NCBI GenBank assembly: GCA_964549075.1
Contig: CAZJUB010000023.1
Location: 1 to 37,509 of the forward strand
Length of the DNA stretch: 37,509 nt
Source of the DNA: an uncultured archaeon
Lineage (GTDB): Archaea; Asgardarchaeota; Heimdallarchaeia; Heimdallarchaeales; Heimdallarchaeaceae
Direction: 5' to 3'
How positions within the stretch are numbered: the first letter of the stretch is position 1; each line of letters opens with the position of its first letter. Below the pieces are notes generated by a model. It had not been told where the DNA came from, did not search any database, and saw only the letters and a program-made list of their open reading frames with translations. A program made the position numbers and the translations under genes. Below, one piece after another: positions 4,281 through 31,105 of the stretch.

Positions 4281-6509
4281 TTAGGTTCTTTTATACATGA
4301 ACCTTTCCCAGTTAGATACATCAGGAACTTGAGGTGATAGTTCTTTTCGAACTCTAATTGATTCTATTATTTCAGCTTCAAGATTTGTTGGTACTGGTTC
4401 AAATCCTGTGAATTCATAACCAAAGAATGCTTTTCCTGAGCTGTTTCCTCTGATCTCATCTGCTAGATCAATTGTTTCAGCTGTAGGTATTTTACCTTTA
4501 ATTCTTGTATTTTCTCCTTCTTGAATCATGTCTAGAATTATTCCTCTATTTTGAGTAATTACTTTAGACATGTTACCTACAAAATCTGAAGGTACTTTGA
4601 TATCTATGATTAATATAGGTTCAAGAAGATGAGGATCACTAGTTAGGAAAGTTGTATGAAAAGCAGCTAAACTCATCTGGAATATTTCACTAAATCCAGT
4701 ATGAGCTGGATCAACGTGGACAGTTGCATCTGTAATGATAAATCGTGTTCCCATTAAAGGTTCCTTTGCCAGAGTTGCTCCATCGCAGAATTCATGAAAT
4801 ATTTGAATGATATATGCTTTAATATTATCTAGTCTCTGAACACCTGTTGTAGCATCTATCAATACATTGGTATCTTTGATATACCATATCCTTCTAGCTA
4901 ATTTAGAATCCCATTCTGCTTGTTCATGAAGCATATTTGCTCTTTCTCTTCTGTCTTGGTCATTATGGACTTTTCCTGATTTGATAAGTTTAAACGATTT
5001 TTCATCTAAAGGTTCAACATGAACCATTAATCTGTTGTGTCCATTTGGAGATTTTGCATGAACACTGATTCCAGGTTTAGTTGGGACTTCTCTATATACA
5101 ATAATTGGATCACTTACCTCAATAGGAACTTGTTCTTCAATCCTTGTCACTAATATCTCTATTTGAAGAGGGTCAATACCTGAAAGAACGTATGTTTTGG
5201 ATTCTTGATCATGTCGAAATGTAGCAGTTGGGTCAGCCATAATCCATTTAGAAACAACCTCTCCAAGTTTAGCGATATCTTGAGGATCTTTTGGTTTGAT
5301 AGTTCTACTTACCACCGGTTCAGCTACATAAGAAATTTCTTCAAAAGGAGTTAAGTGTTCTTCCTTGCCTTCTCTGACAAAGGTCTCTCCTGCTGGAGTG
5401 ATAAAACCATAAATAGCAAATAGATTGCCTGCAGGAATTTCATCGACATCAAGAATGTCAGTGATTTCCATTACACCTAAACGTTTGATTCTGCTAGTTG
5501 TTTTTTTACCCATCAAATATAATGTATCTGAACTTTTGAGTGTTCCTGAAAATACTCTACCAATTAAAGTAGGCCGCTTTGATTTGGGTTCAATGAAAAT
5601 TTTAGTTATCATACCCATCAAAGGTCCATTTCTATCACAGTTCATCAAAGCTTTACCTTCAGGAGTTTCGATATCTCCATCCCAAATAGCTGGAATTTTT
5701 AGCTTCTGTCCTTCAACTGGATTTGGAAGGTGTAAAATAACCATCTCAAGAAGAGGTTCTTCTAATGGCAAGTTTGTTCTTAACCAAGCTTTATCATCTT
5801 CTTCATATTTAGCAAAGACATCTTGAGGTTTAATCTTTAATTTCATTAATGTAGCCATATTGAAAGCCCAGCCATCTTTTGCACTTCCTACAGCAACAGA
5901 ACCATCTTTGAAAGAGACTTGCCAGTCTTTACCTTTAGGTGCACTATCTCTAATGAGTTTATTTACACCGTTGATAATAGCATCAATCTTTTGAAAAACA
6001 TCAACTGGTGCCAATCTTAGTTCAGAAATGAGCCTATCTACTTTGTTAATAAATAGAACTGGCTTACATTTTTCATTTAAACTTAATCTAATATTTGTTT
6101 CAGTTTGAGTCATTACACCTTCAAGAGCATCTACAAGTAGGATTACACCATCACTTCCACGAAGTGCTCTACTTACCTCTCCTGTAAAACTGATGTGTCC
6201 TGGTGTATCATTAATTTCAAATAAATAGGATTTCTTGTCTCCATTTTCATCTACATAATCATAGTTCAATAATACAACTGAAGTGAATATAGTGATACCT
6301 CTTTCTTGCTCTTCTTCATCTGAGTCCATCATAACTTTGACCCCAGCGTCTTTGTCACTCATGAGCCCAGCTTTTCTTAAAAGATAATCACTTGTAGTTG
6401 TTTTACCATGATCGATATGAGCAGCTATCGAAAAAACTCTTCTAAGACTCATGGGGTGATTTTTAATCATATTACGGATTTCATCGGCATTCTTTACACG
6501 AACCATCAT
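4281..6509 (-). CDS. Translation elongation factor EF-2 homologue, probably the Asgard paralogue aEF-2p
   Basis: G1 AHIDHGKTT, G2 RGITI, G3 DTPGH, G4 NKVD, KSPNGHNR; domain IV loop HVDPAHTG (HTG rather than HRG); no neighbouring ribosomal protein genes. Confidence 0.9.
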   Translation of the reverse strand: MMVRVKNADEIRNMIKNHPMSLRRVFSIAAHIDHGKTTTSDYLLRKAGLMSDKDAGVKVMMDSDEEEQERGITIFTSVVLLNYDYVDENGDKKSYLFEINDTPGHISFTGEVSRALRGSDGVILLVDALEGVMTQTETNIRLSLNEKCKPVLFINKVDRLISELRLAPVDVFQKIDAIINGVNKLIRDSAPKGKDWQVSFKDGSVAVGSAKDGWAFNMATLMKLKIKPQDVFAKYEEDDKAWLRTNLPLEEPLLEMVILHLPNPVEGQKLKIPAIWDGDIETPEGKALMNCDRNGPLMGMITKIFIEPKSKRPTLIGRVFSGTLKSSDTLYLMGKKTTSRIKRLGVMEITDILDVDEIPAGNLFAIYGFITPAGETFVREGKEEHLTPFEEISYVAEPVVSRTIKPKDPQDIAKLGEVVSKWIMADPTATFRHDQESKTYVLSGIDPLQIEILVTRIEEQVPIEVSDPIIVYREVPTKPGISVHAKSPNGHNRLMVHVEPLDEKSFKLIKSGKVHNDQDRRERANMLHEQAEWDSKLARRIWYIKDTNVLIDATTGVQRLDNIKAYIIQIFHEFCDGATLAKEPLMGTRFIITDATVHVDPAHTGFSEIFQMSLAAFHTTFLTSDPHLLEPILIIDIKVPSDFVGNMSKVITQNRGIILDMIQEGENTRIKGKIPTAETIDLADEIRGNSSGKAFFGYEFTGFEPVPTNLEAEIIESIRVRKELSPQVPDVSNWERFMYKRT

Positions 6510-6851
6510 AATCCCTTTTTATGTATTCTAACTATCGCAATTATCTTTAAAATATAAGTCTAATGATTATAGATAAACTAGTTTCATAGGTATCTTAGTA
6601 TCCAAAAACTCACAAGATGCTATTATGCATAGCTTAAAAAATAGAAAGTTTTAATGATTTAAATAACATTTTTAGCACTAATTCAGAAAGGAGGAAGGTA
6701 CATGTCGTGCTGGTCAGTTGGAAAAACTTGTTATGCAATCTAGAACAAAGAGCTTCTCTACAGATATTAGCTAGTCTTTTTGCGAATGTCGTAATTACTC
6801 TCCCCTTCAACAAAGAATTATTATAGACTCATCAAATTTAACTGCTTGAAG

Positions 6852-8003
6852 ATGGTTTCAGTTCGAGGTAATGCTTTAATCGGACCTAATTTAGAATTAA
6901 GAGAAAATTGCTTGATTCAAATTGATGATACAGGTGTGATAAGAGATATCTCTTTTGATAACATTTCCGCTGATTATTCTCTACCATCATCATACATAGT
7001 TGTTCCTGGTTTTGTAAATATGCATACTCATGTTGCAGATGCGTTTATTAAAGATCATACGTTTGGTCTGTCTATTGAGAAAGCAGTTGGACCAGAGGGT
7101 CTAAAACACAAACAGCTAAAAGTTAGTACACAAATAGAAAAATCAGAAAGCATACAAAATTCTTTAGAATTATTAGTAAAAAATGGTTTTACAACTTTTG
7201 TGGATTTTCGTGAAGAGGGTAGAGAAGGTATTCGTACATTAAGAAAAGAATTGAAAAACTTCCCAATTAGAGGTATAATATTGGGTCGCAAAATTACTGG
7301 AGAAAAAATTTCCCAAATATTTGAAATTGCAGACGGTTTAGGATTTTGTGATATTTTGTCAATAGCTAATGACTCTGTACTGGAGATAAAATCTTTGAAA
7401 AACAAAAATCCTGACAAATTAGTTTCTATCCATGCTGCTGAAACAATGGACTTAATCTCAGTCTCACTTACAAAATATGGTGTACCAGATGTAAAAAAAA
7501 TCTGTGAATACTCTATTTTTGATTTCATTGTTCATGCAACTTATTCTAACGAAGATGATATCCAATCATTAATGAAAAATGGAGTCAATGTAGTATGTTG
7601 TCCTATTGCTAATCTTTATCATGGATTGAAATTTCCACCAATAGCACTTATTTTAAGAAATAATGTTCTTTTAGGATTGGGAACAGATAATGTGTTAAGT
7701 TGTAATCCTGATCCTTTCAGATTAATGGCTTTCACATTATATTCAGCTAGGAGTAATTATCAAAATTTAGAACCGAAAGAAATACTCAAGGCTATAACCG
7801 TTAATGCAGGGAATATTTTAAAGAGGAAAATTGGTCAAATATCAATAGGATATAGTGGAGATTTATTAGGAATCAATCTAGGAAGTCCTAATACGAAATA
7901 TTCTAAAGATGTTTTTACAGCAATAACCATGAGAGCGGATATTGAAGATATTGGTTTTCAAATGTTTGAAGGAAAGATTGTCAAATGGAAAGACCTGAAG
8001 TGA
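6852..8003 (+). CDS. Metal-dependent amidohydrolase/deaminase (archaeal chlorohydrolase-like subfamily)
   Basis: PGFVNMHTHVAD (HxHxxD), GLKH, DFREEG, HAAE, HAT, LGTDN; ATG at 6852 (TTG at 6846 is an alternative start). Confidence 0.85.
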   Translation: MVSVRGNALIGPNLELRENCLIQIDDTGVIRDISFDNISADYSLPSSYIVVPGFVNMHTHVADAFIKDHTFGLSIEKAVGPEGLKHKQLKVSTQIEKSESIQNSLELLVKNGFTTFVDFREEGREGIRTLRKELKNFPIRGIILGRKITGEKISQIFEIADGLGFCDILSIANDSVLEIKSLKNKNPDKLVSIHAAETMDLISVSLTKYGVPDVKKICEYSIFDFIVHATYSNEDDIQSLMKNGVNVVCCPIANLYHGLKFPPIALILRNNVLLGLGTDNVLSCNPDPFRLMAFTLYSARSNYQNLEPKEILKAITVNAGNILKRKIGQISIGYSGDLLGINLGSPNTKYSKDVFTAITMRADIEDIGFQMFEGKIVKWKDLK

Positions 8004-8659
8004 TAATTAATGTGGCAAGTACTCTAGATGGAGTTATAGCTAATGAGAGAGGAGCATTAATTCTTTCGACAACAGAAGATTGGATAAGGGTACATGAGCT
8101 TCGAAACTCAGTCGATGCTATTTTAGTAGGTATAAATACAATTGTAAAGGATGATCCTCAATTGACAATTCGCTATGTAACTCCTAAAAAACCTCTTCCT
8201 TTAAGAGTGATTCTTGATTCAACATGCAAAATCCCTCCAACTTCAAAGGTATTAACCAATCTTGCAGATTATCCTACCTTAATAGTTACATCAGAGAATG
8301 CTCCTGAAGAAAAAATACACAAACTTAAGGAGATAGGAACTAAAATATTGAAAATTTCAAAATATCAATTTCCAGGCTATTTAGACCTAGAAGAAATGCT
8401 CCTTAAATTAAAACAAAATTATGGGATAAACAAAATACTAGTTGAAGGAGGTTCTACTATCATCACTCAATTTATTAAGTTAAATTTGGTAGATACAATA
8501 CACATATTTTATGTTACCAAATTTGCAGGTACAACTAATGCTAAACTGCTTTTTGAAGAGACTGTAGTACCAAATGTAGCTAATACTTTAAACTTCCATT
8601 TAGAAAAAATAGAACAATTAGAAGATGGTTATGTAATAACTCTCACACCAAATAGATGA
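7985..8659 (+). CDS. arfC: 2,5-diamino-6-ribosylamino-4(3H)-pyrimidinone 5'-phosphate reductase (stand-alone RibD C-terminal domain, ArfC/Rib7 type)
   Basis: ASTLDG, VHELRNSVDAILVGINT, DDPQLT, LVEGGS; no N-terminal deaminase domain. Confidence 0.85.
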   Translation: MERPEVIINVASTLDGVIANERGALILSTTEDWIRVHELRNSVDAILVGINTIVKDDPQLTIRYVTPKKPLPLRVILDSTCKIPPTSKVLTNLADYPTLIVTSENAPEEKIHKLKEIGTKILKISKYQFPGYLDLEEMLLKLKQNYGINKILVEGGSTIITQFIKLNLVDTIHIFYVTKFAGTTNAKLLFEETVVPNVANTLNFHLEKIEQLEDGYVITLTPNR

Positions 8660-9759
8660 TAATCATGGACTCTGAAGAAATTCTTAATTTAGTGAACAAT
8701 GATCGTAGTGAATTACATTCAAAAGCACAAGAAATAAAGACTAACACTTTTGGTAATATAGTGACTTTTTCACGTAATTTATTTGTTCCAGTTACCCACC
8801 AATGCAGAAATAGATGTGGATATTGCAGTTTTGTTTCAGATGACTCTAATAGTTGGATTACTCCAGAGAATTATCAAAGTTTACTCAAAGATGCAAAAAA
8901 TGCAAATTGTAAAGAAATTCTACTAACTCTAGGAGAGAAACCTGAAGAAAAATACCAATCGGCTAAAGATTATTTAAATCAATATGGATTCGATAAAACT
9001 GTAAATTACGTAAATCATTTTTGTGAATTAGCTCTTAACTTCAACCTACTCCCACATTCAAATCTAGGTGTTTTAACTTTTGATGAACTTGCTATTTTAA
9101 AAGAAAATAACGCTAGTATGGGTCTTATGTTGGAATCAAGTAGCTATCGTCTAATGGATAAAAATCAAGCTCATTATCTCTCTCCCGGAAAGGATCCTTC
9201 TCTTCGTCTTGATACATTAATTGAAGCTGGTAAGCTAAAAATACCATTCACTTCTGGTATCTTAATAGGTATTGGAGAAACTTGGGAAGAGCGGATACAA
9301 GCTCTATTCGATATTAAATCGATTCAAACAAAATATAGCAATATTCAAGAGGTTATAGTACAAAATTTCAATCCTCAGCCAGGAACACCTATGTCCTCTT
9401 GGTCTGCTCCCTTGGAATATGATGTTCTCCTAAGTATTTCTATAGCAAGAATAATATTACAACCATCAATCAACCTTCAAATCCCGCCAAATTTAAACAA
9501 ATATAGACTTATTGACGCTTTAAATTATGGTGCAAACGATTTAGGAGGGATCTCTCCTATCTCAATCGACTACATAAATCCAAATCACGAATGGCATAAA
9601 GAACAAGAATTAGCTGAAAAACTGAATAGTTCAAATTATGAATTAGTAGAACGATTACCTGTATATCCTTCTTATGAAAAATATTTAAACACTAGAATCC
9701 GAAAAATAATTGAGGAATATCGCGAAAATGAAAAAGCTCTCTACTCCAGTAATAGATGA
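8656..9759 (+). CDS. cofG: FO synthase subunit CofG (radical SAM)
   Basis: VTFSRNLFVPVTHQCRNRCGYC, LPHSN, SMGLMLES, HYLSPGKDP, IPFTSGILIGIGE, QEVIVQNF, QIPPNL, DLGGISP. Confidence 0.92.
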   Translation: MIIMDSEEILNLVNNDRSELHSKAQEIKTNTFGNIVTFSRNLFVPVTHQCRNRCGYCSFVSDDSNSWITPENYQSLLKDAKNANCKEILLTLGEKPEEKYQSAKDYLNQYGFDKTVNYVNHFCELALNFNLLPHSNLGVLTFDELAILKENNASMGLMLESSSYRLMDKNQAHYLSPGKDPSLRLDTLIEAGKLKIPFTSGILIGIGETWEERIQALFDIKSIQTKYSNIQEVIVQNFNPQPGTPMSSWSAPLEYDVLLSISIARIILQPSINLQIPPNLNKYRLIDALNYGANDLGGISPISIDYINPNHEWHKEQELAEKLNSSNYELVERLPVYPSYEKYLNTRIRKIIEEYRENEKALYSSNR

Positions 9760-10855
9760 AACATATGATTTAACCAATTTTGGGGAATCTCATAAAAAAG
9801 AAATCAAAGATGTAGCACAGATGTTAAAGAAACGAGGGAGAGATTTGTGGATACAAACATCTGTAGCAGATGAAGTGAGATTTCAACAAACAGGTCCTGA
9901 GGTTACATTTGTTGTAAATCAAAATATTAATTTTTCTCAACACTGCATCGGTTCTTGCCGTTTTTGTTCATATAGTTTAAAACCTAATGAAACAAAAAAC
10001 ATCCCCACCCGTATGTCTTTAGAAGACATACGAATTGAAGTAGAGAAAGCAATAGCTAGGGATTGTTCAGAAATATGTATACAAGGGGGATTGGATCCTA
10101 CACTAAATTATGCCTTTTATATTGACATTTTGAAAACTATCAAATCAGTTTCCCAAAAAATCCACGTTCATGGATTTTCGCCTTCTGAAATTGCGTTTAT
10201 CTCTCAACTATCTGGTGAATCAGTAGAGGATGTATTTAAGGAATTAATTAAAAACGGTTTAGATTCATTTCCTGGAACAGCAGCTGAGATTCTAGTTGAC
10301 AGTGTAAGAAGAAAAATTTGTCCAGAAAAAATCTCAACGAATCAATGGGTTAACATAGTTTTAACAGGACATTCTCTAGGTTTAAGATCAACTGCTACAA
10401 TTATGTATGGACATATTGAAACTTATCTAGAAGAAGCTGAACACTTGGCAATTTTAAAGTATATTCAAGAAATTTCTGGTGGGTTTACTGAATTTATACC
10501 ACTATCTTTTGTTTATCCAAATACCAAACTCTATAGATATATGGGGGCTAGACCTGGTAGTACGGGTATGCATGACTTAGCTTTATTTAGCACTGCTAGA
10601 TTATATTTAGGCGATTCTTTCACTAATATCCAAGCTTCTTGGGTAAAACTTGGACCTAAACTAGCTCAAGTATCTCTAAGCACTGGAGTAAATGATTTAG
10701 GGGGAACTCTATTTACAGAGAATATAACTAAAAGTGCTGGAGGTAAATTTGGGGAGGAAAAGAATGTAGAGGAGTTTATTGAATTAATCAGAGATGCAGG
10801 AAGAATCCCTGTTCGAAGAGATACAATGTACAATAAGCTTCAAGTGTTCCAGTAG
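9728..10855 (+). CDS. cofH: FO synthase subunit CofH (radical SAM)
   Basis: VTFVVNQNINFSQHCIGSCRFC, EICIQGG, HVHGFSPSE, PGTAAEIL, STATIMYGH, NIQASWVKLG, NDLGGTL..ENI; adjacent to cofG. ATG at 9728 preferred over TTG at 9710. Confidence 0.92.
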   Translation: MKKLSTPVIDETYDLTNFGESHKKEIKDVAQMLKKRGRDLWIQTSVADEVRFQQTGPEVTFVVNQNINFSQHCIGSCRFCSYSLKPNETKNIPTRMSLEDIRIEVEKAIARDCSEICIQGGLDPTLNYAFYIDILKTIKSVSQKIHVHGFSPSEIAFISQLSGESVEDVFKELIKNGLDSFPGTAAEILVDSVRRKICPEKISTNQWVNIVLTGHSLGLRSTATIMYGHIETYLEEAEHLAILKYIQEISGGFTEFIPLSFVYPNTKLYRYMGARPGSTGMHDLALFSTARLYLGDSFTNIQASWVKLGPKLAQVSLSTGVNDLGGTLFTENITKSAGGKFGEEKNVEEFIELIRDAGRIPVRRDTMYNKLQVFQ

Positions 10856-11279: not shown

Positions 11280-13826
11280 ATGAAGTGTCCAGATTGTGGG
11301 AAAGATTTGTCTATTGAGAGTAAATTGGATATCTTCATTTTCCGTTGTAGTTTTTGTGGTTTGAAAGAACAAACTCTCGCATCAAATGATAAAGAAGCAT
11401 ACAAAAAACTTGTTGAAACAAAAAAAGCTAAAAGAGATTCCAGAATAAAAAAGATTCAAGAGAATGAAGAATATCCACTCCCATTCCCAAGAAAGACAAA
11501 GGAGGAAAAACAGCTACTCATAACCAAAGGCGGTTACGATCCCGCAAAATTGCCTTCAGCAATTAAAAGTATAATCAATAATCCAGATATTGAATTAATT
11601 TATTTCAGATTTCTAAAACAAAAAACTCCTGAAAAAGCTTCCAAAGAAGTTGATTTACCAGAGAAACTAACTGAGTTTCTTACTCAAAACAAATTTAAGT
11701 CATTATATGAATTTCAACGACAATCTTTCGAAACAATTATGGAAGAGAAAGATACTATCATTGTTGCACCTACTGGAACGGGAAAAACTGAAGCATTTCT
11801 TTTACCTGTCTTAACTAAAATTTGGAATATTTCCCCTCATCCTTTACTAAGAAGAGGAATATCTGCAATAATAATCTACCCCACTAAAGCTTTAGCTAGA
11901 GATCAAGAGAAAAAAATTCGAAAATATGGTTCATCTCTAAGTGTGACTTGTGAGGTTTTTGATGGTGATACACCAAAGACTCTTAGGGAAAAGATAATGG
12001 AATCCCCACCAGATATTTTAATCACTAATCCTGATATGTTACATTATCACTTGAGAAATCCTCAATTTACATCTCTGTTAAGTGATTTGAAATTTGTAAT
12101 TATAGATGAGATTCATATTGCTACTGGTGCTTTTGGATCTAACCTGTATTTCATACTTAAGAGACTTCAAAGGTTTACTAAAAATAGAGTACAGTTGATT
12201 GGTTCTTCAGCTACTATTGGAAACGCGAAAGAGTTTACACATCAGCTTTTTGATAGAGATATAACACAAATCAGCATAACAGATGCAAGAAAAGCTCCAA
12301 CTCATCTTCTTATAACCATTCCTTGGAATGTAAGTCAATATACTATCACTTCTGAAATCACTAGGCAGTTAGTAAATTCTGGTCATAAAACTCTCTGTTT
12401 TCAGAATAGCCATAAAAATGCTGAGATTATAAACTTGCTTTTGAGATCAGCAAGAATTAAGTCTTCAGTTCATAGGGCTGGTTTAACGCAAACCTATAGA
12501 AATAAGATTGAGCACCAGTTTAGAAATGGAGAACTTGATGCACTTGTTTCAACTCCTACATTAGAATTAGGGATAGACATTGGTGATGTAGATGGTGTTG
12601 TATCTTCTTTAGTTGATATAACTAGTTTTACGCAAAGATTAGGTAGAGCAGGTAGAAAAGGACAGGAATCTGTGGGAGCTTTAGTTTTAAGAAATGACGA
12701 TCCTATTAGTACATATTATTCTGTTTATCCAGATACATATTTCGAGGATATAAGAAGAGGATATGTTGAACCACGTAACGAAATAGTGTCTTATTACCAG
12801 CTTTTAGCAGCTGTGTTAGAGAAAAATATTACAAAAAATGAATTCATTGTTCATAGCGATATGTTAGAAAAACTTGAGAAGGAAAAACTCATACGAAAAA
12901 CTGATTCTGGTGATTATAGAGCTCATTCGAGAGCTGAGATTAACCGTCTCTTAAGAAGCTATTCAATTAGAGGAATTGGTGATAATTTGGTACTTAAAGA
13001 TGGTAAAGGTGAAAAAATGGGTGAAAGATCTATGCCAATGGCAGCTAGAGAGATTCATCCTGGAGCCATTTATCTACATGGAGGTAAATATTACAAGGTG
13101 TCCTCTTTCAAGTATAATTCCAAGTTCGGTGGTGGTGAGATAATACTTGAACCAATCCCTCCAGTAAATCATAAAACAACAGCTAACAGATTTGCCATAC
13201 CTTCTATTCTTAAAATTAATGAAAGTAAAGAGGTGATGGGTTCTGAAGTTATTTATTGCGATTTACAAATAACAGAGCATGTAACAGGTTACAAAGTTTC
13301 TGATATTTTTACAAATAAGCTACTACAAACTAAAGATTTTGACGAACCAATCATTTATACCTTCAACACTAAAGGTTTTATGTTTACAATGCCAAAACCA
13401 ATGAGAATGCTCAATAAAGACCAGCAATTATCAGAAGACCTTATTCTAAATGGAACTTTTCATGCAGTGGAACATGTCGTAATAGAGTCAAGTTCTATGC
13501 TTACAGGAGGAGGGAGTTCGGAAATTGGGGGTATATCTATGGGAAAATCAGGAGCGATATTTGTCTATGATGGAGCACAAGGGGGAAGTGGATTATCAAA
13601 GCTATTATATGATAGATTAGAAGAAGCTTTTCAAAGATCATTAGAAATTTTGAAAAATTGTATATGTTCAACAACCGATGGTTGTCCAAGGTGTACTTAC
13701 TCTTATCAATGTGGTAACAATAATCAACCTTTGAATAAAATAGGAGCCATAGAGTCTTTAGAAGAATTAGGAAAACTGAAAATAGGGATTATTGAGAACT
13801 ATAACGATTATGAATCTTATGTGTAA
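11280..13826 (+). CDS. SF2 DEAH helicase with C-terminal DUF1998/MZB Zn domain (Hrq1/MrfA/SftH family) and an N-terminal Zn ribbon
   Basis: APTGTGKT, YPTKALARDQ, TNPDML, DEIH, SAT, TPTLELGIDIG, QRLGRAGR; C-terminal CIC...GCPRC...CGNNNQPLNK; N-terminal CPDC...CSFC. Confidence 0.92.
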   Translation: MKCPDCGKDLSIESKLDIFIFRCSFCGLKEQTLASNDKEAYKKLVETKKAKRDSRIKKIQENEEYPLPFPRKTKEEKQLLITKGGYDPAKLPSAIKSIINNPDIELIYFRFLKQKTPEKASKEVDLPEKLTEFLTQNKFKSLYEFQRQSFETIMEEKDTIIVAPTGTGKTEAFLLPVLTKIWNISPHPLLRRGISAIIIYPTKALARDQEKKIRKYGSSLSVTCEVFDGDTPKTLREKIMESPPDILITNPDMLHYHLRNPQFTSLLSDLKFVIIDEIHIATGAFGSNLYFILKRLQRFTKNRVQLIGSSATIGNAKEFTHQLFDRDITQISITDARKAPTHLLITIPWNVSQYTITSEITRQLVNSGHKTLCFQNSHKNAEIINLLLRSARIKSSVHRAGLTQTYRNKIEHQFRNGELDALVSTPTLELGIDIGDVDGVVSSLVDITSFTQRLGRAGRKGQESVGALVLRNDDPISTYYSVYPDTYFEDIRRGYVEPRNEIVSYYQLLAAVLEKNITKNEFIVHSDMLEKLEKEKLIRKTDSGDYRAHSRAEINRLLRSYSIRGIGDNLVLKDGKGEKMGERSMPMAAREIHPGAIYLHGGKYYKVSSFKYNSKFGGGEIILEPIPPVNHKTTANRFAIPSILKINESKEVMGSEVIYCDLQITEHVTGYKVSDIFTNKLLQTKDFDEPIIYTFNTKGFMFTMPKPMRMLNKDQQLSEDLILNGTFHAVEHVVIESSSMLTGGGSSEIGGISMGKSGAIFVYDGAQGGSGLSKLLYDRLEEAFQRSLEILKNCICSTTDGCPRCTYSYQCGNNNQPLNKIGAIESLEELGKLKIGIIENYNDYESYV

Positions 13827-14463: not shown

Positions 14464-15375
14464 GTGCAAAAAGAGGATTTATTTGACATTCTAGAAGATC
14501 ATCTCTTTAGTAATTCGTATCTTGATGAAAAGAAATTAAGTGAAAAGATTCAAATAAGTCAGAAAGAAATCAAAGAATTTTTCTCAAGTAAGTCTGAACA
14601 AATGGGTTTTATAAAAGATGGTAATTCTATCTTTTTTGCCCATGAAATCATTCGCGAGCACTTTAATGAAATTAAAGATTCGTTTTGGTTATGGTTCTTA
14701 AAATGTGTACCCAGTTACAGCGATCTTGCTTGGGAGGAAGGTTCAGCAATAGCAGACACTTCCAAGATAAAAGTGATTTCTTCGAAACCATCAACAAAAA
14801 GCATGATACAAACATTTACAGCAAGAATACTTCTTTTAGGAGAAGAGAGAACTGGAAAACAATCATATGTTTATTCCTTATCTGGTGAGACTCTAAATAG
14901 ACCTGCTCCAGGAGTTTTCTCTGGAAAAATCTCAAGATCATTAAATGAATTTATTACAGATTTTGAATGTATAATTCTAGACCTCCCTCGAGGTTCTCCT
15001 CTATGGATATATGCAAAAGCTTCATTTGGTGTCATCCTCACCTATGACCTCTCTGATACTCAAACTTATGATAAGTTAATGTATTGGTTGACTCTATTCT
15101 CTGATTCTTATTCTTATGAGTTATGTCCACCAATAATGCTCCTTGGGACAAAAATGGATCTAATTTCAAGAGAAGAGCTTCTAGCTTTTAAGAACAAAGC
15201 TGAAATAGTAAGAGAACAAATAGAACAAGAATACGGTACTATAGTATTGAGTGAGATGGTGTCGTTAACCGATGGTAGTAATGTTTTAAGCTCCTTTGAG
15301 AATTTTGCTAGAACAATTCGTCAGTGGTATCAAATAATAAAAGAAGAATATCAAGATGAGAACCCAATGATCTAA
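14464..15375 (+). CDS. Divergent Ras/Rab-superfamily small GTPase domain with a ~120-aa N-terminal extension
   Basis: ILLLGEERTGKQS (G1-like), ILDLPRG (degenerate G3), GVILTYDLSD, PIMLLGTKMDL (G4), VSLTDGSNV (G5 region). Confidence 0.75.
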   Translation: MQKEDLFDILEDHLFSNSYLDEKKLSEKIQISQKEIKEFFSSKSEQMGFIKDGNSIFFAHEIIREHFNEIKDSFWLWFLKCVPSYSDLAWEEGSAIADTSKIKVISSKPSTKSMIQTFTARILLLGEERTGKQSYVYSLSGETLNRPAPGVFSGKISRSLNEFITDFECIILDLPRGSPLWIYAKASFGVILTYDLSDTQTYDKLMYWLTLFSDSYSYELCPPIMLLGTKMDLISREELLAFKNKAEIVREQIEQEYGTIVLSEMVSLTDGSNVLSSFENFARTIRQWYQIIKEEYQDENPMI

Positions 15376-17900: not shown

Positions 17901-18632
17901 ATGTCACTCGAACCAAAAAGAGCTTACAAAATTGTTCTTATAGGCGATCCTGAGGTAGGAAAAACATCTATTAGAAGGAAATACATGGGAAAGTCGTTTA
18001 GAGCAGACTATTTGAAAACTTTAGGAGCAGATTTTGCTGCGCAAAAAGTCAACGTGGAAGGAGAATCAGTACTTTTAACAATCTGGGATTTAGCTGGCCA
18101 ATCAATATTTCATGGTATGCGATCATCATTTTATCATGGATGTAAATGTGCACTTGTTGTTTTTGATGTTACCAATCCTCAAACTTTAGAAAATAGCTAT
18201 AAATGGGCTGAGGAAGCAGCAAATTATGCTAAAGGTTCATTGAAGGAAATTTATCTTATTGGTAATAAGATTGATCTAGTAGACGATCGTTTGGTTTATC
18301 ATGATGATATCCAATTGACAGCAGAGAAGTTTAGGCAAGCTTTCAAGTTTCCTGTGGAGATTTATGAAACCTCAGCGTTAACTGGAGAAAATATCATAGA
18401 ACTTTTCGAGCATATGAGTAGAAGGTTAATAATTGGGGATGAGACCAGAGAAGAACAACAAGAAGTACAAATTGAAAGTCAACAAATTGAACAAGAAGCC
18501 CAAATTCAAGATAGAACTAAAGACGATAGTAATGTTGCCATTCTCAATATGCTTGAGTCTTTAGAAAAACGAATAAATAGTATCAATGATGATTTGGACG
18601 TAATTAAAAAATATATTAAGAAGGAAGAGTAA
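17901..18632 (+). CDS. Rab-like small GTPase with a C-terminal coiled-coil extension
   Basis: Intact G1 GDPEVGKTS, G2 KTLGADF, G3 WDLAGQ, G4 GNKID, G5 ETSAL; RabF-like motifs. Confidence 0.92.
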   Translation: MSLEPKRAYKIVLIGDPEVGKTSIRRKYMGKSFRADYLKTLGADFAAQKVNVEGESVLLTIWDLAGQSIFHGMRSSFYHGCKCALVVFDVTNPQTLENSYKWAEEAANYAKGSLKEIYLIGNKIDLVDDRLVYHDDIQLTAEKFRQAFKFPVEIYETSALTGENIIELFEHMSRRLIIGDETREEQQEVQIESQQIEQEAQIQDRTKDDSNVAILNMLESLEKRINSINDDLDVIKKYIKKEE

Positions 18633-27015: not shown

Positions 27016-28851
27016 ATGTGTTTATTTGTGACACAGCAAGAAGAAAAAACTGCTGAGGAAGAAACCATTCCTTTAGAGAAACGTAAAGAAATCATACCTC
27101 CCAAAATTAAACTTCAATTCAAGAAATATTGGATTTACGCAAAAAAATGGTTTCCTTTAGCAATCGTTATTGGAATTATTAGCGGTATTTTGATGGGTTT
27201 GTTTACAAGTTTAGTTGTTAACCTTGAAAAATGGACAGTTGATACCATACCCATTTATATTAGATACCCCCTTGTTGGTGTTGTTACTTCTCTATTTCTT
27301 TATTTTGGTTATACTGAAGTTAGAGGAGCTGGGATTTCCTATGTACTGAAACACAAAAATACAACTACTTCCATACCCAAAAGAGTTCTTCTTACGAAGT
27401 TCTTTACAAGTGTCTTAGCTTTAGGTGCTCATGCTCCAGCAGGTCGAGAAGGTCCTTCGGTAACCTTAGGAAGCACAGCAGCTTTTACAATTGCTGATTT
27501 AACCAAAATGTCTGCTGAGGATGAAATGCATGCTGTGACTATAGGTGCTGCAGCTTGTACGGCAGCTGTTTTTGGAGCTCCTCTAGGAGGTACAGTTTTT
27601 GCTACCGAGGTGCCTTTTAAACATGATCTAGACGAAACAGTATTTCTACCTGCTTTACTTGCAAGTGCGATTGCGTTTTTAATTTCTGATGCGATCTTAA
27701 ATTTATTAAATTCAAAACCTGTACCTCTTGATATTGAACATTTTACCATTCCTTTGAAATTTGTCGATTCTATGCTTTATGTTTTATTAGGTATTTTTGC
27801 AGGATTATCAGGAATAGGCTTTTCCTTACTTTTCAAGAATTTATCAAAATGGTCAGGGAAATATATTAAGTCATATTTCATGCCTTTGGTTGGTATGCTG
27901 TTAACTACCGTTATTGTAGCTGTAATGGAATTGTATTTGCCAGAAAATATAACTTTAGGGGGAACTGGTTTTAGTTCAATTAATACGCTTCTTGAAAATT
28001 ATGGGACAGTTAGTCTAGGAGTCTTATTCCTGCTGTTCTTGGGTAAGATGATTGCTACCTCGACTTGTGTAGGATTTGGTACATCTGGTGGAGTAATGGG
28101 GCCTTCATTAGTTACAGGAGCTGCTCTTGGTGTTTTATATTGGAAATTATTTTCGTTTGCGGGTGTTAATCCTTTAGCATTAATTATAGTAGGTATGTCT
28201 TCTTTTCATACAGCAACCACTAAGACTCCTATCGCTTCAATGATTTTAGTTCTTGAAATGGTAGGTTTTCCAAATTTGATTATTCCTATAATCCTTTCAA
28301 ATGTTGCTGCATTTATTGTATCTATGGATTTCAGTTTATACAGTGGTCAGCTCCAAAGTAAAGAAGTCATATTAAGAAGAAGAATTCAATATACAGATGT
28401 CTTAGAAACCTTGAATGTGAAGGAAGCGATGGAAACAACTTATGTGTCAGTTAAAGAGGATGAGCGATTAAAAGACACTTTTTCACTTCTTTATCTTCAC
28501 AAAATAAGCTCGCTTCTTGTTGTTGATAATAAGAATGAACTTGCAGGGATAATCAGTGCTTCAGATTTTCAAAGAGGTTTTTCAAAAGGTTCAAACCTAA
28601 TTTCAGATGAAATGACGCGGAATTTATATGTGGCTCATCCTGAAGAAAGTTTGAGAGATGCTTTTGATCGTTTAACTACGAATGCTATAGAATGTATGCC
28701 AGTAGTAACTAAAGATGAACCTAAAAAAATACTAGGAATTGTTGCTTTCAGAGATATTGAGCATAGATATGAAACAGAATTAACAAAATTAGAACTCAAA
28801 AGGAAATTAACAATAAAGGAATTAGAAGAGGAATTAGATGATGATATATAA
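27016..28851 (+). CDS. CLC chloride channel/transporter with a C-terminal CBS pair (CLC-2, divergent)
   Basis: GAGISY, AGREGP, FGAPLGG, GGVMGP, SLYSGQ; two CBS domains; acidic tail. Confidence 0.9.
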   Translation: MCLFVTQQEEKTAEEETIPLEKRKEIIPPKIKLQFKKYWIYAKKWFPLAIVIGIISGILMGLFTSLVVNLEKWTVDTIPIYIRYPLVGVVTSLFLYFGYTEVRGAGISYVLKHKNTTTSIPKRVLLTKFFTSVLALGAHAPAGREGPSVTLGSTAAFTIADLTKMSAEDEMHAVTIGAAACTAAVFGAPLGGTVFATEVPFKHDLDETVFLPALLASAIAFLISDAILNLLNSKPVPLDIEHFTIPLKFVDSMLYVLLGIFAGLSGIGFSLLFKNLSKWSGKYIKSYFMPLVGMLLTTVIVAVMELYLPENITLGGTGFSSINTLLENYGTVSLGVLFLLFLGKMIATSTCVGFGTSGGVMGPSLVTGAALGVLYWKLFSFAGVNPLALIIVGMSSFHTATTKTPIASMILVLEMVGFPNLIIPIILSNVAAFIVSMDFSLYSGQLQSKEVILRRRIQYTDVLETLNVKEAMETTYVSVKEDERLKDTFSLLYLHKISSLLVVDNKNELAGIISASDFQRGFSKGSNLISDEMTRNLYVAHPEESLRDAFDRLTTNAIECMPVVTKDEPKKILGIVAFRDIEHRYETELTKLELKRKLTIKELEEELDDDI

Positions 28852-29611
28852 TACAGAAAATTCACCTTTCAAAGACCTTGAATCTATGTCTTTTTCAGAG
28901 AAATCTTGGTTGAATTTTTGGTATCCAAAAATATGTGAGTTCTTACATCTTTCTCCAGAAGAAGATTTAGTAGCTTTAAAATCATCTCTAACAGAATTAT
29001 CGAGCAATTTTTCCTTTAAAAAACTTACAAACTTACTTGAAAAAAAACGAGTTATAGCAATAGCTCCGGGGATTCACCTCGAAAAAGAAATAGATGAATA
29101 TCTACAAAAAGCGAGGAAATCAGAAGATGTTTTAGTTTCTGCAGATGGAGCTACATCCTATCTGCTTTCAAGGGATATTATACCTCACATCATTGTTAGT
29201 GATTTGGATGGTAATGCTAGAGATCAAATAGAAGCTCAGAAAAGAGGTTCACTTATTTTGCTTCATATTCATGGGGATAACTATAGGAAGATTGAACCAT
29301 TTTTTAAAGAAATTTCAGTTGGGAATTTTCTCATAACTACTCAAATTCAACCTTTACCTAATTCCTTTAATTTCTTTGGTTTCACTGATGGAGATAGAAT
29401 TGTTTGTCTTTCTACTTACATGAAAACAGCAGAAATCATTCTTATTGGTTATGATTTTGGATCAGAAATAGGAAAATTCTCAAAGAATGGTTCTTTTGAT
29501 GAGAGATTTAAAGAACGAAAAATGAAGAAATTTGTAATAGGAAAATCGATAATTAACTGGTGTTCAAATCAAGGTCAGAAAATATCTTTTCTCTCTAATT
29601 TGAAAATTTAA
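28838..29611 (+). CDS. mptE: 6-hydroxymethyl-7,8-dihydropterin pyrophosphokinase (MptE/DUF115)
   Basis: ADGA, PHIIVSDLDG, HIHGDN, NFFGFTDGDR, GYDF motifs. Confidence 0.85.
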   Translation: MMIYNTENSPFKDLESMSFSEKSWLNFWYPKICEFLHLSPEEDLVALKSSLTELSSNFSFKKLTNLLEKKRVIAIAPGIHLEKEIDEYLQKARKSEDVLVSADGATSYLLSRDIIPHIIVSDLDGNARDQIEAQKRGSLILLHIHGDNYRKIEPFFKEISVGNFLITTQIQPLPNSFNFFGFTDGDRIVCLSTYMKTAEIILIGYDFGSEIGKFSKNGSFDERFKERKMKKFVIGKSIINWCSNQGQKISFLSNLKI

Positions 29612-30099
29612 TCGTGAACTGGAAATAATTCTGTAGTTACTCCTTGACCCTCATACTCATACACAGTTACCGTTACCTGACTTATATTTTCTTGTTTTAT
29701 CTCCTCATTTTTTGCTAACATTTTGACAAAATAATGACTCAGTTCTTCTACAGTGGTATTCTCAATTGGCAACATTACAACATCAGATTTAGGAAATTCA
29801 TATTCTTTTTCGCTATGAGGAATCTTAACGATAACTTGATTTCCTTCTTCAATTATAGTTATAAGTCTGTTCTTGGAAGGAATGAGGACATAATGATCAA
29901 GTGTATTCACTATAGGTTTCATAATACGCTTTATTGTGTGAAAATTAATTACCATATTGTCTTTTCCTTGAGTTCCATAGACATTTACTAATATACTATA
30001 ATTGTGTCCATGGAGGGGTTCTTCGAATTTTTCCCCAACAACAAAATGAGCACAAGAAAAAGTTAGATAATCCCTATCTAAAAATAAATCATATGTCAT
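29608..30099 (-). CDS. 6-pyruvoyl-tetrahydropterin synthase family protein with a PTPS-III-type motif
   Basis: FSCAHF, EEPLHGHNY, MVINF, LDH, NTTVEEL, VYE. Confidence 0.85.
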   Translation of the reverse strand: MTYDLFLDRDYLTFSCAHFVVGEKFEEPLHGHNYSILVNVYGTQGKDNMVINFHTIKRIMKPIVNTLDHYVLIPSKNRLITIIEEGNQVIVKIPHSEKEYEFPKSDVVMLPIENTTVEELSHYFVKMLAKNEEIKQENISQVTVTVYEYEGQGVTTELFPVHD

Positions 30100-30148
30100 T
30101 AATTTTGTAATTCTGTGTTTTAATAAAAATCCTTCTTTCTAACATAGC

Positions 30149-31105
30149 TTACTCGTTGCTTTCAAGAATGAAAGATTCAAGTTCTTGTATCCCTAAATCT
30201 ATATCTACAAGATAAACAAGAAAGTCTGATAATAAAGCTGCATATTCATTTCTGAGTTCTTTACCAATGTTAATTAACTCATCAAAACTGCTAATGTCAT
30301 CAAGCCCCCAAGAAAGAACGTCACAGAGTTTGCCTATTTCATCTTCTGTTAAAACATCCTCTCCTTTAGTCTCAAGCATGTTAATCTGTACTAGTATCTT
30401 TTCTGTACTAGAAGCTTCATCTTCATATATAGATGTGAGAGGAATGATACAAATATCCAACAATTCGTGTAAAGTCATTTGAGCTTTATCAGCAAGGTCT
30501 ATAGCTTGAAATGATAAATCAGTTGTTTGTCTGATTAGTTCTTTCTGGTTTTGTAGATTTTCCTCATCTATTACAACACCCTTATGCAAATTCATGTATT
30601 CATCTTGTTTATTTAGAACCAAAGAAAGATTCTCTCTAATACTTTCCTCAACTTCAGATTCAGGAGAAGTTCTGTAATAGATGTCTTGCCATTGATTATT
30701 CACCTGCTCCTTTAGATCTAGAAGTTCTCCCCCTCTAACAAGAAGACTTTCAATTTTATGAATGATAATCTCCCTCTCATTCATCCCTTTGAGGTAGGCT
30801 CTTTCTACTTCTTCCTCAAATTCTGTTTTTGCTCTACCTGCAGATCGTAAATAGTCCACAATAGAACTTTGATAAAAGGTACGAGCTAGCATGGACATAG
30901 CCGATAGTAACGAATTTCGTAATGTATAAAGACTATCTTCGTTAGAACCAAGAAAGCGATCAATAGAGGTGAGGATGTTGTTCATCAATGTATAAATGTG
31001 ACGGAGTGTCCTGTAATTCAGCCTATCTAGGAATTTTCCTAGAACGGTCTGTCTTTCCAGAACCGCCTCTATATCTTCTTGCATTCGTGATAAAGAGAAA
31101 GTCAT
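30149..31105 (-). CDS. Hypothetical acidic all-helical/coiled-coil protein
   Basis: 318-aa ORF rich in L and E, only two Pro, no TM segment or recognisable motif. Confidence 0.75.
   Translation of the reverse strand: MTFSLSRMQEDIEAVLERQTVLGKFLDRLNYRTLRHIYTLMNNILTSIDRFLGSNEDSLYTLRNSLLSAMSMLARTFYQSSIVDYLRSAGRAKTEFEEEVERAYLKGMNEREIIIHKIESLLVRGGELLDLKEQVNNQWQDIYYRTSPESEVEESIRENLSLVLNKQDEYMNLHKGVVIDEENLQNQKELIRQTTDLSFQAIDLADKAQMTLHELLDICIIPLTSIYEDEASSTEKILVQINMLETKGEDVLTEDEIGKLCDVLSWGLDDISSFDELINIGKELRNEYAALLSDFLVYLVDIDLGIQELESFILESNE

What the first reader, a model, noticed from the sequence alone, without database searches (positions are those of the whole stretch)
6852..10855. Amidohydrolase is a candidate for the missing pyrimidine deaminase of archaeal riboflavin/FO synthesis
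Seen: four overlapping, co-oriented genes in the order amidohydrolase, stand-alone reductase, cofG, cofH. Established: ArfC/Rib7-type reductases make 2,5-diamino-6-ribitylamino-pyrimidinone 5'-phosphate, which must be deaminated and dephosphorylated to 5-amino-6-ribitylaminouracil, the CofH substrate. This reductase lacks the RibD deaminase domain, and to my knowledge the archaeal deaminase has no biochemically confirmed gene. Inference: the HxH/HxxE/GTD metal deaminase performs that step. An alternative is that it deaminates the 5'-deoxyadenosine by-product of the two radical SAM enzymes.
Basis: partly seen in the sequence, partly recalled or inferred. Interest (0 to 1): 0.75.

Follow-up and report, generated by a model that had tools for sequence, protein, structure and literature searches.

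The report
Predicted archaeal pyrimidine deaminase, FO operon
A Heimdall-type archaeon has a four-gene operon for the chromophore of coenzyme F420 whose first gene very probably encodes the never-assayed archaeal pyrimidine deaminase, but this protein family was already proposed for that step years ago, so this is a well-supported rediscovery.

Summary
Four co-oriented, overlapping genes encode a metal-dependent amidohydrolase, a stand-alone pyrimidine reductase, CofG and CofH.

The amidohydrolase is an ortholog of M. jannaschii MJ0699. That family was proposed in 2010 and 2017 as the archaeal pyrimidine deaminase "PyrD" and is still untested (PMC5397151, PMC8305020). This scan reached the same verdict on five other genomes.

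Evidence here:
- The reductase gene lies directly downstream in 78 of 80 loci from Asgard, Nitrososphaerota and Bathyarchaeia; in Nitrososphaerota the pair sits inside riboflavin operons.
- In 151 Asgard genomes, all 59 with the gene have the reductase and also CofH or RibH. None of the 85 lacking both CofH and RibH has it. No fused RibD was found.
- The 5'-deoxyadenosine deaminase alternative is unlikely: a separate DadD-like paralog exists, and the gene occurs without cofGH.

Added point: RibB and RibH were not found in this genus, although riboflavin kinase is present. The branch seems to feed FO/F420 only.

No member has been assayed.

The parts
6846..8003 (+). Amidohydrolase-superfamily deaminase-type protein (385 aa from TTG 6846; 383 aa from ATG 6852). 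It is an ortholog of MJ0699 and the predicted 2,5-diamino-6-ribitylamino-4(3H)-pyrimidinone 5'-phosphate deaminase.
   Evidence: Amidohydro_1; best NCBIfam model NF005552 at 251.2 bits, cut-off 294; 31% identity to MJ0699, E 4e-46, full length. MJ0699 finds this gene as its best match in the genome (146 bits, next 42); clade with 100/100 support apart from the genome's four paralogs; confident model, deaminase-type TIM barrel; catalytic and family-specific residues kept.
7985..8659 (+). Stand-alone pyrimidine reductase (ArfC/Rib7/MjaRED type), 224 aa, with no deaminase domain.
   Evidence: RibD_C only; TIGR00227 at 167.3 bits over its cut-off of 150.15; TIGR01508 at 165.4 bits under its cut-off of 186.45; best solved relatives are the 2,5-diamino-6-ribosylamino-pyrimidinone 5'-phosphate reductases 6p8c (E 6.5e-32) and 2azn (M. 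jannaschii, E 3.9e-30). Asn9 aligns with the Asn of both.
8656..9759 (+). CofG, radical SAM subunit of FO synthase.
   Evidence: NF004884 at 413.3 bits (cut-off 209) and TIGR03550 at 388.4 bits (cut-off 213.35).
9710..10855 (+). CofH, radical SAM subunit of FO synthase. It uses 5-amino-6-ribitylaminouracil and tyrosine.
   Evidence: TIGR03551 at 423.5 bits (cut-off 374.1). Radical_SAM plus CofH_C.
6510..6845 (.). A 336-nt AT-rich intergenic region between the divergent EF-2-like gene (4281..6509, - strand) and the operon. It is presumed to hold the operon promoter.
   Evidence: sequence read only. No promoter analysis was done, so this is an inference from position.

Best explanation
The first gene encodes a mononuclear-metal deaminase with a TIM-barrel fold, from the amidohydrolase superfamily and orthologous to MJ0699. 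It most likely removes the 2-amino group of the diaminopyrimidinone intermediate.

The proposed pathway is as follows. RibA, encoded elsewhere in the genome, opens GTP to 2,5-diamino-6-ribosylamino-4(3H)-pyrimidinone 5'-phosphate. The reductase encoded by the second gene converts this to the ribityl form. The amidohydrolase deaminates that to 5-amino-6-ribitylamino-uracil 5'-phosphate. An unidentified phosphatase releases 5-amino-6-ribitylaminouracil. CofH and CofG condense it with tyrosine to give FO, the chromophore of F420.

In this genus the late riboflavin genes were not found. The operon therefore appears to be a dedicated 'pyrimidine to FO' module.

Shown here: gene order, orthology, fold, conserved catalytic residues, linkage and co-occurrence. 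Inferred: the catalytic activity, the exact substrate (ribityl rather than ribosyl form), and the FO-only role.
For: (1) Orthology to the published candidate.
- MJ0699 (Q58110) is P0394. It is 31% identical over the full length, E 4e-46.
- MJ0699 finds the window gene as its best hit in the genome, 146 bits against 42 for the next.
- In a 30-row tree, 26 family rows including MJ0699 and the window protein form a clade with 100/100 support, apart from the genome's four COG0402-like paralogs.
- A cluster mate carries the source name 'Pyrimidine deaminase archaeal predicted'.

(2) Deaminase machinery.
- H60, H62, H196, E199, H230 and D281 are kept in 133-136 of 136 family rows. They align with the HxH, HxxE and D of a solved MTA/SAH deaminase.
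- The AlphaFold model has pLDDT 92.9. Its nearest solved folds are adenosine/MTA, isocytosine, guanine and 8-oxoguanine deaminases and triazine hydrolases, at 15-20% identity. Several of these deaminate a 2-amino-4-oxopyrimidine ring.
- Family-specific residues differ from the paralogs: D65, K87, F121-R122-E123, C252, N282 and R363.

(3) Linkage.
- The reductase gene is immediately downstream on the same strand in 78 of 80 loci.
- In Nitrososphaerota-type loci the pair follows ribE, ribB, ribH and arfA on the same strand. These gene clusters occur in 53-64 of 80 loci; one representative of each cluster was annotated.
- In all 10 Asgard loci the pair is followed by cofG and cofH.

(4) Co-occurrence in 151 Asgard genomes.
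- 59 genomes carry the gene, and 59 of 59 have the reductase.
- 59 of 59 have CofH or RibH: 36 CofH only, 6 RibH only, 17 both.
- 0 of 85 genomes lacking both CofH and RibH carry it.
- Within one genus (g12), the four genomes with the gene are exactly the four with CofH.

(5) A real pathway gap.
- The genome's only CDA-fold deaminases look like a dCMP deaminase and a cytidine deaminase.
- Fused RibD was found in 0 of 151 genomes.

(6) The gene occurs with both kinds of first enzyme. RibA is found in 12 of 13 family mates plus this genome. ArfA lies directly upstream of the gene in 13 genomes (coordinates compared by eye). This fits a step common to both routes, not a deformylase.

(7) The reductase has Asn at the position where bacterial enzymes have the Lys that selects the deaminated substrate (passages of PMC3631187). 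This fits reduction before deamination.
Against: - No member of the family has been assayed or knocked out in any paper I could find.
- The protein scores below the curated cut-off of its best NCBIfam model (251.2 against 294). So do all 31 sampled relatives (0 of 31 over the cut-off).
- Five of 59 carriers have the gene away from the reductase gene, and one more is at a contig edge (by eye).
- Seven genomes with CofH or RibH lack a match at E <= 1e-30. Five of them, in families f3 and f4, have only a divergent homolog. One is 78% complete. One (G159, 99% complete) has RibH and ArfA but neither this gene nor the reductase.
- Two genomes (G126, G131) have a reductase-like gene without this one.
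- The sampled genomes are kin, so the counts overstate independence.
- The phosphatase step is unassigned.
- The order of reduction and deamination rests on one residue and on M. jannaschii work that I did not read directly.
Confidence: 0.8

Rival explanations
1. The protein deaminates in this pathway but acts on the ribosyl intermediate before reduction (the bacterial order). The reductase would then take the deaminated substrate.
For: Gene order puts the amidohydrolase first. Genomic context cannot tell the order of two consecutive steps. TIGR01508, the archaeal reductase equivalog, is just below its cut-off for the reductase (165.4 against 186.45).
Against: The reductase's best solved relatives are the enzymes that reduce the non-deaminated substrate: 6p8c at E 6.5e-32 and 2azn at E 3.9e-30, against bacterial RibD at E 3.8e-18 or weaker. 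It has Asn, not the bacterial Lys, at the specificity position (passages of PMC3631187). The PMC5397151 introduction states that archaea reduce first.
Confidence: 0.08
2. The protein is a 5'-deoxyadenosine, MTA or SAH deaminase that clears the by-product of the two radical SAM enzymes CofG and CofH.
For: It lies in one operon with two radical SAM genes. It has the same superfamily and catalytic motifs as DadD/MtaD.
Against: - The DadD model NF005557 scores only 54.4 bits against a cut-off of 522.
- The genome has a separate DadD-like paralog (NF005557 at 474.3 bits) and two MtaD-like paralogs. These form a different clade.
- Six Asgard genomes carry the gene with RibH but without CofH.
- In 53-64 of 80 loci it sits in riboflavin operons with no radical SAM gene.
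- The residues that differ from the paralogs are conserved across the family.
Confidence: 0.03
3. The protein performs another hydrolytic step of the same pathway. It could be the deformylase after ArfA (a substitute for ArfB) or the phosphatase that releases 5-amino-6-ribitylaminouracil.
For: Both steps lack an assigned gene in many archaea; PMC8305020 Table 6 lists pathway gaps. The amidohydrolase superfamily includes amide and phosphoester hydrolases. ArfA lies directly upstream of the gene in 13 Asgard genomes (by eye).
Against: This genome and its family use RibA, whose product needs no deformylation. ArfA was found in 0 of 13 family mates and RibA in 12 of 13, yet all keep the gene. The HxH / H-x-x-E / H / D set and the nearest folds are those of deaminases. 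If this protein did another step, the deaminase step would remain without any candidate.
Confidence: 0.04
4. The protein deaminates an unrelated aminopyrimidine, pterin or purine, and its linkage to the reductase is historical.
For: No assay exists. Its nearest folds act on many different bases.
Against: Adjacency is kept at about 30% protein identity across Asgard, Nitrososphaerota and Bathyarchaeia. Presence follows CofH or RibH exactly in the Asgard sample: 59 of 59 and 0 of 85.
Confidence: 0.05

Closest known systems
MJ0699 / HVO_2483 family: 'PyrD', the predicted archaeal pyrimidine deaminase (SEED-style name 'Pyrimidine deaminase archaeal predicted'; NCBIfam NF005552, PRK07213 'chlorohydrolase')
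   Same: The window protein falls in the same clade. It shows full-length homology and is MJ0699's best match in this genome, checked in that direction only. It keeps the family-specific residues and the linkage to the reductase and to riboflavin or FO genes. The prediction was made from clustering and co-occurrence (passages of PMC5397151) and is listed as a prediction for HVO_2483 and MJ0699 (PMC8305020 Table 6).
   Different: The Asgard branch scores below the curated NF005552 cut-off (251.2 against 294; 0 of 31 relatives over it). Here the gene heads an FO-synthase operon in a lineage where late riboflavin genes were not found. I did not find that context described in the papers searched. 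I did not see the 2010 chapter itself.
RibD N-terminal domain (bacteria, plants) and fungal Rib2 deaminase
   Same: They carry out the same pathway step. Rib2 acts on the same ribityl substrate (passages of PMC3631187 and PMC12542839).
   Different: The fold is unrelated. Those enzymes are zinc deaminases of the cytidine-deaminase fold, whereas this is a (beta/alpha)8 amidohydrolase. If the function holds, this is a non-orthologous replacement.
COG0402-type deaminases with solved structures: MTA/SAH and adenosine deaminases (4f0r, 4gbd, 1p1m), isocytosine/8-oxoguanine deaminase (7ww2, 8is4), guanine deaminase (2uz9, 6ohb)
   Same: The fold and catalytic residues match. Guanine, isocytosine and 8-oxoguanine deaminases also remove the 2-amino group of a 2-amino-4-oxopyrimidine ring.
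   Different: Identity is only 15-20%. The protein is shorter (about 385 aa against 405-475), has different pocket residues and forms a separate clade from the genome's own members of those groups.
DadD (MJ1541-type 5'-deoxyadenosine deaminase; NCBIfam NF005557)
   Same: It belongs to the same superfamily, and its role is tied to radical SAM enzymes.
   Different: The window protein scores 54.4 bits against a cut-off of 522. Another gene in the genome scores 474.3 bits.

Membership tests
MJ0699-type predicted archaeal pyrimidine deaminase ('PyrD') clade | Full-length homology to MJ0699, with the window gene as MJ0699's best match in this genome | tested here: met
   31% identity, E 4e-46, residues 6-377 against 7-379; 146 bits, with the next hit at 42 bits. 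The reverse direction, against the M. jannaschii genome, could not be run.
MJ0699-type predicted archaeal pyrimidine deaminase ('PyrD') clade | Monophyly with MJ0699, apart from DadD/MtaD/SsnA-type paralogs | tested here: met
   26 family rows against 4 paralogs of this genome, split supported 100/100. The tree was midpoint-rooted for drawing only. One long-branch row (the f3 homolog) is placed with less certainty.
MJ0699-type predicted archaeal pyrimidine deaminase ('PyrD') clade | Chromosomal clustering and co-occurrence with riboflavin/FO pyrimidine-branch genes (the basis of the published prediction) | tested here: met
   78 of 80 loci have the reductase gene downstream; riboflavin operons; 59 of 59 and 0 of 85.
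MJ0699-type predicted archaeal pyrimidine deaminase ('PyrD') clade | Deaminase activity on 2,5-diamino-6-ribitylamino-4(3H)-pyrimidinone 5'-phosphate | not testable with these tools
   I found no assay for any member. PMC5397151 says the prediction 'remains to be tested'.
NCBIfam NF005552 (PRK07213, 'chlorohydrolase', equivalog) | Score at or above the curated cut-off of 294 bits | tested here: not met
   251.2 bits. This is the best model by far (the next scores 86.4) with full-length coverage. The curated model is narrower than the clade: only 20 of 125 family representatives scanned exceed 294 bits (125 of 145 were sent because of a size limit). I therefore do not file the protein under this NCBIfam equivalog as curated, only under the wider clade.
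Amidohydrolase superfamily, mononuclear deaminase type (COG0402-like) | HxH after strand 1, H-x-x-E after strand 5, His after strand 6, Asp after strand 8 | tested here: met
   H60, H62, H196, E199, H230 and D281; alignment to 4f0r; strand positions.
Amidohydrolase superfamily, mononuclear deaminase type (COG0402-like) | (beta/alpha)8 barrel with a small beta-sandwich domain, similar to solved deaminases | tested here: met
   pLDDT 92.9, pTM 0.93. TM-score (query-normalised) 0.77-0.87 to adenosine/MTA, isocytosine and guanine deaminases.
DadD 5'-deoxyadenosine deaminase (NF005557) | Score over the cut-off of 522 bits, or clade membership | tested here: not met
   54.4 bits; the paralog on contig C50 scores 474.3 bits; separate clades.
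RibD/Rib2 CDA-fold pyrimidine deaminase | dCMP_cyt_deam-type zinc deaminase domain | tested here: not met
   no such Pfam domain in any of the four proteins; the genome's two CDA-fold proteins look like a dCMP deaminase and a cytidine deaminase.
Archaeal/fungal 2,5-diamino-6-ribosylamino-pyrimidinone 5'-phosphate reductase (ArfC/Rib7), for gene 2 | RibD_C fold without a deaminase domain, and a non-Lys residue (Asn in archaea) at the substrate-selecting position | tested here: met
   Asn9 aligns with the Asn of 2azn and 6p8c. The rule is taken from passages of PMC3631187. TIGR01508 is below its cut-off (165.4 against 186.45) and TIGR00227 above its own (167.3 against 150.15).
FO synthase CofG / CofH, for genes 3 and 4 | Scores over the curated equivalog cut-offs | tested here: met
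   CofG 413.3 bits against 209; CofH 423.5 bits against 374.1.

The most novel reading that the evidence does not exclude
In this Heimdall-type genus the early riboflavin branch (RibA, the stand-alone reductase and the amidohydrolase deaminase) may survive only to feed the deazaflavin FO/F420, in organisms that scavenge riboflavin. The four-gene operon would then be a self-contained 'pyrimidine to FO' module. Its deaminase would be a TIM-barrel metal enzyme that has replaced, by convergence, the cytidine-deaminase-fold enzyme used for this step by bacteria, plants and fungi.
Probability: 0.55. Interest if true: 0.45.

Novelty: new member of a known kind. Interest (0 to 1): 0.35.

Why it matters
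The deaminase is one of the remaining unassigned steps of archaeal riboflavin and F420 synthesis, along with the phosphatase and, in many lineages, the deformylase. A confirmed gene would complete pathway reconstructions for methanogens, haloarchaea, ammonia oxidisers and Asgard archaea. It would also document a non-orthologous replacement of RibD/Rib2 by an amidohydrolase.

The candidate is already in the literature, so the value here lies in added evidence. First, it has two independent operon contexts, riboflavin operons and FO operons. Second, its presence follows 'CofH or RibH' in 151 Asgard genomes. Third, there are lineages where the branch seems to serve F420 alone.

Those lineages offer a clean test. 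In such a background the enzyme's only expected output is the CofH substrate.

Tried and rejected
- Expression: one search listed no RNA holder for the operon, so no reads were laid. This says nothing about expression.
- Supplements: those of PMC5397151 and PMC8305020 were not readable (58 and 63 characters held). The locus-tag tables for 'PyrD' and Supplementary Text S1 Section S6 on HVO_2483 may bear on the claim and were not seen.
- HVO_2483: I could not fetch this sequence or the M. jannaschii genome. The haloarchaeal link rests on Table 6 of PMC8305020 alone, and the best-hit test ran in one direction only.
- NF005552 as a presence test: it matches all paralogs at E <= 0.001 (31 of 31 genomes) and is uninformative. 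I switched to the window protein at E <= 1e-30. That threshold misses the divergent homologs of families f3 and f4.
- Riboflavin kinase in this genome: neither type was found. I first read this as a possible oddity. The archaeal kinase is present in 24 of 26 family genomes, so assembly incompleteness (89.7%) is the likelier cause.
- MptA as first enzyme: I considered an MptA-type GTP cyclohydrolase for Loki-type FO operons. It is single-copy and widespread, so I left it as an unexplained side note.
- Complex prediction of amidohydrolase with reductase: not run, because no claim of binding is made.
The position of the family-specific residues relative to the metal site is inferred from strand ends, not measured.

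Full report
**Observation**

One search shows four co-oriented ORFs on the + strand.
- 6846..8003: 385 aa from TTG.
- 7985..8659: 224 aa.
- 8656..9759: 367 aa.
- 9710..10855: 381 aa.

They overlap by 19, 4 and 50 nt. Searches identify them as follows.
- An Amidohydro_1 protein. Its best NCBIfam model is NF005552 (PRK07213, 'chlorohydrolase') at 251.2 bits over the full length, below the curated cut-off of 294. The next model scores 86.4 bits.
- A stand-alone RibD_C reductase with no deaminase domain.
- CofG (413.3 bits against a cut-off of 209).
- CofH (423.5 bits against 374.1).

**What the amidohydrolase is**

Homolog names place the genome among Heimdall-type Asgard archaea. A profile search of 1.84 billion representatives found 1108 proteins at E <= 1e-30. 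Among the best was P0153 from Methanotorris igneus, which scores 582.6 bits on NF005552. Searching with P0153 and listing clusters gave P0394, which is MJ0699 (UniProt Q58110). It also gave cluster mates from Methanocaldococcus lauensis that a source names 'Pyrimidine deaminase archaeal predicted'.

The window protein aligns with MJ0699 over its full length (31% identity, E 4e-46). MJ0699 finds the window gene as its best match in this genome, at 146 bits against 42 for the next.

A maximum-likelihood tree of 30 rows puts 26 family members in one clade with 100/100 support. These include the window protein, MJ0699, methanogen, Thermoplasmatales, Nitrososphaerota, Bathyarchaeia and Asgard sequences. 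The clade is separate from this genome's four other COG0402-like proteins.

Those four paralogs look like the following:
- a DadD-type 5'-deoxyadenosine deaminase (NF005557, 474.3 bits);
- two MTA/SAH-deaminase-like proteins;
- an SsnA-like protein.

**Literature**

The introduction of Rodionova et al. 2017 (PMC5397151, passages read) makes three points. [quoted passage not shown] The prediction remains to be tested.

Pfeiffer and Dyall-Smith 2021 (PMC8305020, passages and Table 6) list HVO_2483 as 'prediction', 34% identical to MJ0699, 'also predicted for MJ0699'. The supplements of both papers were not readable.

Full-text searches found no assay or knockout of any member. 'MJ0699' occurs in one paper only.

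Five earlier reports of this scan, on other genomes, reached the same verdict. I saw them after forming my reading.

**Deaminase machinery**

H60, H62, H196, E199, H230 and D281 are invariant in alignment A1. They are kept in 133-136 of 136 family rows. They align with the HxH, HxxE and Asp of a solved MTA/SAH deaminase.

The AlphaFold model is confident (pLDDT 92.9, pTM 0.93). These residues sit at the ends of barrel strands. The nearest solved folds (TM-score 0.77-0.87, 15-20% identity) are adenosine/MTA deaminases, an isocytosine/8-oxoguanine deaminase, guanine deaminases and triazine hydrolases. Several of these remove the 2-amino group of a 2-amino-4-oxopyrimidine ring, the chemistry required here.

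Residues conserved in the family but different in the paralogs are D65, K87, F121-R122-E123, C252, N282 and R363. They point to a distinct substrate pocket. Their role in binding the ribityl phosphate is my inference.

**Linkage**

One scan of species-representative genomes returned 80 loci. In 78 of 80 a reductase gene follows immediately on the same strand. The two exceptions are L027, which has no match, and L074, whose contig ends 141 nt after the match.

The 10 Asgard loci are labelled Heimdall, Hermod, Promethearchaeota and Thor. All show amidohydrolase, reductase, cofG, cofH as far as the contig reaches: 8 are complete and 2 are cut.

In the other loci, mostly Nitrososphaerota, neutral clustering of neighbours found same-strand genes mostly upstream in 53-64 of 80 loci. 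One representative of each cluster was annotated. They are riboflavin synthase RibE, RibB, lumazine synthase RibH and GTP cyclohydrolase IIa/III (ArfA).

The same gene pair therefore sits in riboflavin operons in one phylum and in FO-synthase operons in another. What the two contexts share is the need for 5-amino-6-ribitylaminouracil.

**Co-occurrence**

The same sample of 151 Asgard genomes was searched seven times.
- The window protein at E <= 1e-30 matched 59 genomes.
- CofH matched 57.
- RibH/archaeal RibC (PF00885) matched 30.
- The reductase part of TIGR00326 matched 67. No genome had a fused RibD over the cut-off, 0 of 151.

Set arithmetic gives these results.
- 59 of 59 carriers have the reductase.
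- 59 of 59 have CofH or RibH: 36 CofH only, 6 RibH only, 17 both.
- 0 of the 85 genomes lacking both CofH and RibH carry the gene.

Seven genomes with CofH or RibH lack a match at this threshold. Five belong to families f3 and f4 and have a divergent homolog; it lies next to ribH in three of them and sits on a long branch inside the family clade. One is 78% complete. One (G159, 99% complete) has RibH and ArfA but neither this gene nor the reductase.

Within genus g12, the four genomes with the gene are the four with CofH.

I compared the printed coordinates by eye and found the following.
- The reductase gene is adjacent in 53 of 59 carriers. Five are not adjacent and one is at a contig edge.
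- CofH is within about 4 kb in 13 of 14 carriers of the window's family and in 20 of 23 carriers of the Loki-type family f13.
- ArfA lies directly upstream of the gene in 13 genomes of families f8, f11, f18 and f22.

The genomes are kin, so these counts overstate independent support. The pattern nevertheless holds across at least nine taxonomic families.

**The rivals**

The 5'-deoxyadenosine deaminase reading is disfavoured for four reasons:
- the separate DadD-like paralog;
- the separate clades;
- the six genomes with the gene and RibH but no CofH;
- the riboflavin-operon context without radical SAM genes.

A deformylase role is disfavoured because this genome and its family start the pathway with RibA, whose product is not formylated. 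RibA was found in 12 of 13 family mates and in this genome. ArfA was found in 0 of 13 family mates and not in this genome.

The order of the two middle steps is inferred. The reductase's best solved relatives are the diaminopyrimidinone reductases 6p8c and 2azn. It has Asn where bacterial enzymes have the Lys that selects the deaminated substrate and fungal Rib7 has Thr (passages of PMC3631187).

**What this genome adds**

In G000 (89.7% complete) I found no RibB, no PF00885 protein (RibH or archaeal RibC) and no RibE. Two CofE-type F420 ligases are present.
- RibH was found in 0 of 9 sampled genus mates and in 1 of 13 family mates.
- RibB was found in 0 of 19 genus mates and in 1 of 25 family mates. 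The one exception, G055, has a bacterial-looking ribBA-ribH pair.
- The archaeal riboflavin kinase is present in 24 of 26 family genomes, though not in G000 itself.

The simplest reading is that this lineage scavenges riboflavin and keeps RibA, the reductase and the amidohydrolase only to make FO for F420. I did not find this stated in the papers searched. The F420 review PMC8498797 (passages) says only that Loki-, Heimdall- and Helarchaeota possess the F420 genes.

**Verdict**

I file the protein as a new member of the MJ0699-type clade. I do not file it under NF005552 as curated, because its cut-off is not met. Confidence that it is the pathway's pyrimidine deaminase is about 0.8.

Noticed in passing
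Related loci L028-L030, L032, L033, L035, L041 (about 6900-7860, - strand) and genomes of Asgard family f13 (for example G038:C61:143290-144219): In Loki-, Hermod- and Thor-type loci, the genome's single MptA-type GTP cyclohydrolase (TIGR00294, over its cut-off) lies directly upstream of the amidohydrolase-reductase-cofG-cofH operon and is divergent from it. RibA was found in none of the 25 f13 genomes, and ArfA in none of the f13 genomes that have the operon but no RibH. The enzyme that opens GTP for FO synthesis there is unidentified.
   Followed up: partly
Asgard families f10, f17 and f26 (for example G035:C17:4182-4670): GTP cyclohydrolase II (PF00925) is present in 20 of 26 f10 genomes and 3 of 3 f17 genomes. 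These genomes have no reductase, no MJ0699-type gene, no RibH and no CofH. This is an orphan RibA with no visible downstream pathway.
   Followed up: no
G000 whole genome; family sample of 26 genomes: Late riboflavin genes were not found in the window's genus: RibB in 0 of 19 genus mates, RibH in 0 of 9, and neither in G000. The archaeal CTP-dependent riboflavin kinase is present in 24 of 26 family genomes, in frames of 230-255 aa that are long enough for an added N-terminal domain. G000 itself shows neither kinase type, probably because the assembly is incomplete.
   Followed up: partly
G055:C1:242281-243929: The one family mate with late riboflavin genes has a fused ribBA (400-aa frame) next to a high-scoring RibH (194 bits), far from its FO operon. 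This looks like a separately acquired bacterial-type pair.
   Followed up: no
G020:C10:12591-14092, G022:C217:947-2457, G024:C1:202080-203656: Sister families f3 and f4 of the same order carry a much more divergent homolog of the amidohydrolase, on a long branch inside the family clade. It lies next to ribH rather than next to the reductase or cofGH.
   Followed up: partly
window 4281-6509 (- strand): A 742-aa EF-2/EF-G-like GTPase is divergently transcribed from the operon. The same neighbour (741-746 aa, - strand) precedes the operon in Heimdall loci L025 and L026. Another aEF-2-like frame lies on contig C14 (L104:45-1529, 232 bits, partial).
   Followed up: no
window 14464-15375 and 17901-18632 (+ strand): There are two Ras/Roc-family small GTPase genes, the second a strong match (138 bits). 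Between them lie ORFs with no Pfam match.
   Followed up: no
window 28838-31764: A cluster of pterin-related genes: MptE-like 6-hydroxymethylpterin diphosphokinase (+ strand), a PTPS-family protein (- strand) and a NUDIX hydrolase (- strand). They were not examined for any link to the missing phosphatase step.
   Followed up: no
window 11280-13826 (+ strand): An 848-aa DEAD/DEAH helicase with a C-terminal MrfA-type zinc-binding domain lies directly downstream of the operon.
   Followed up: no
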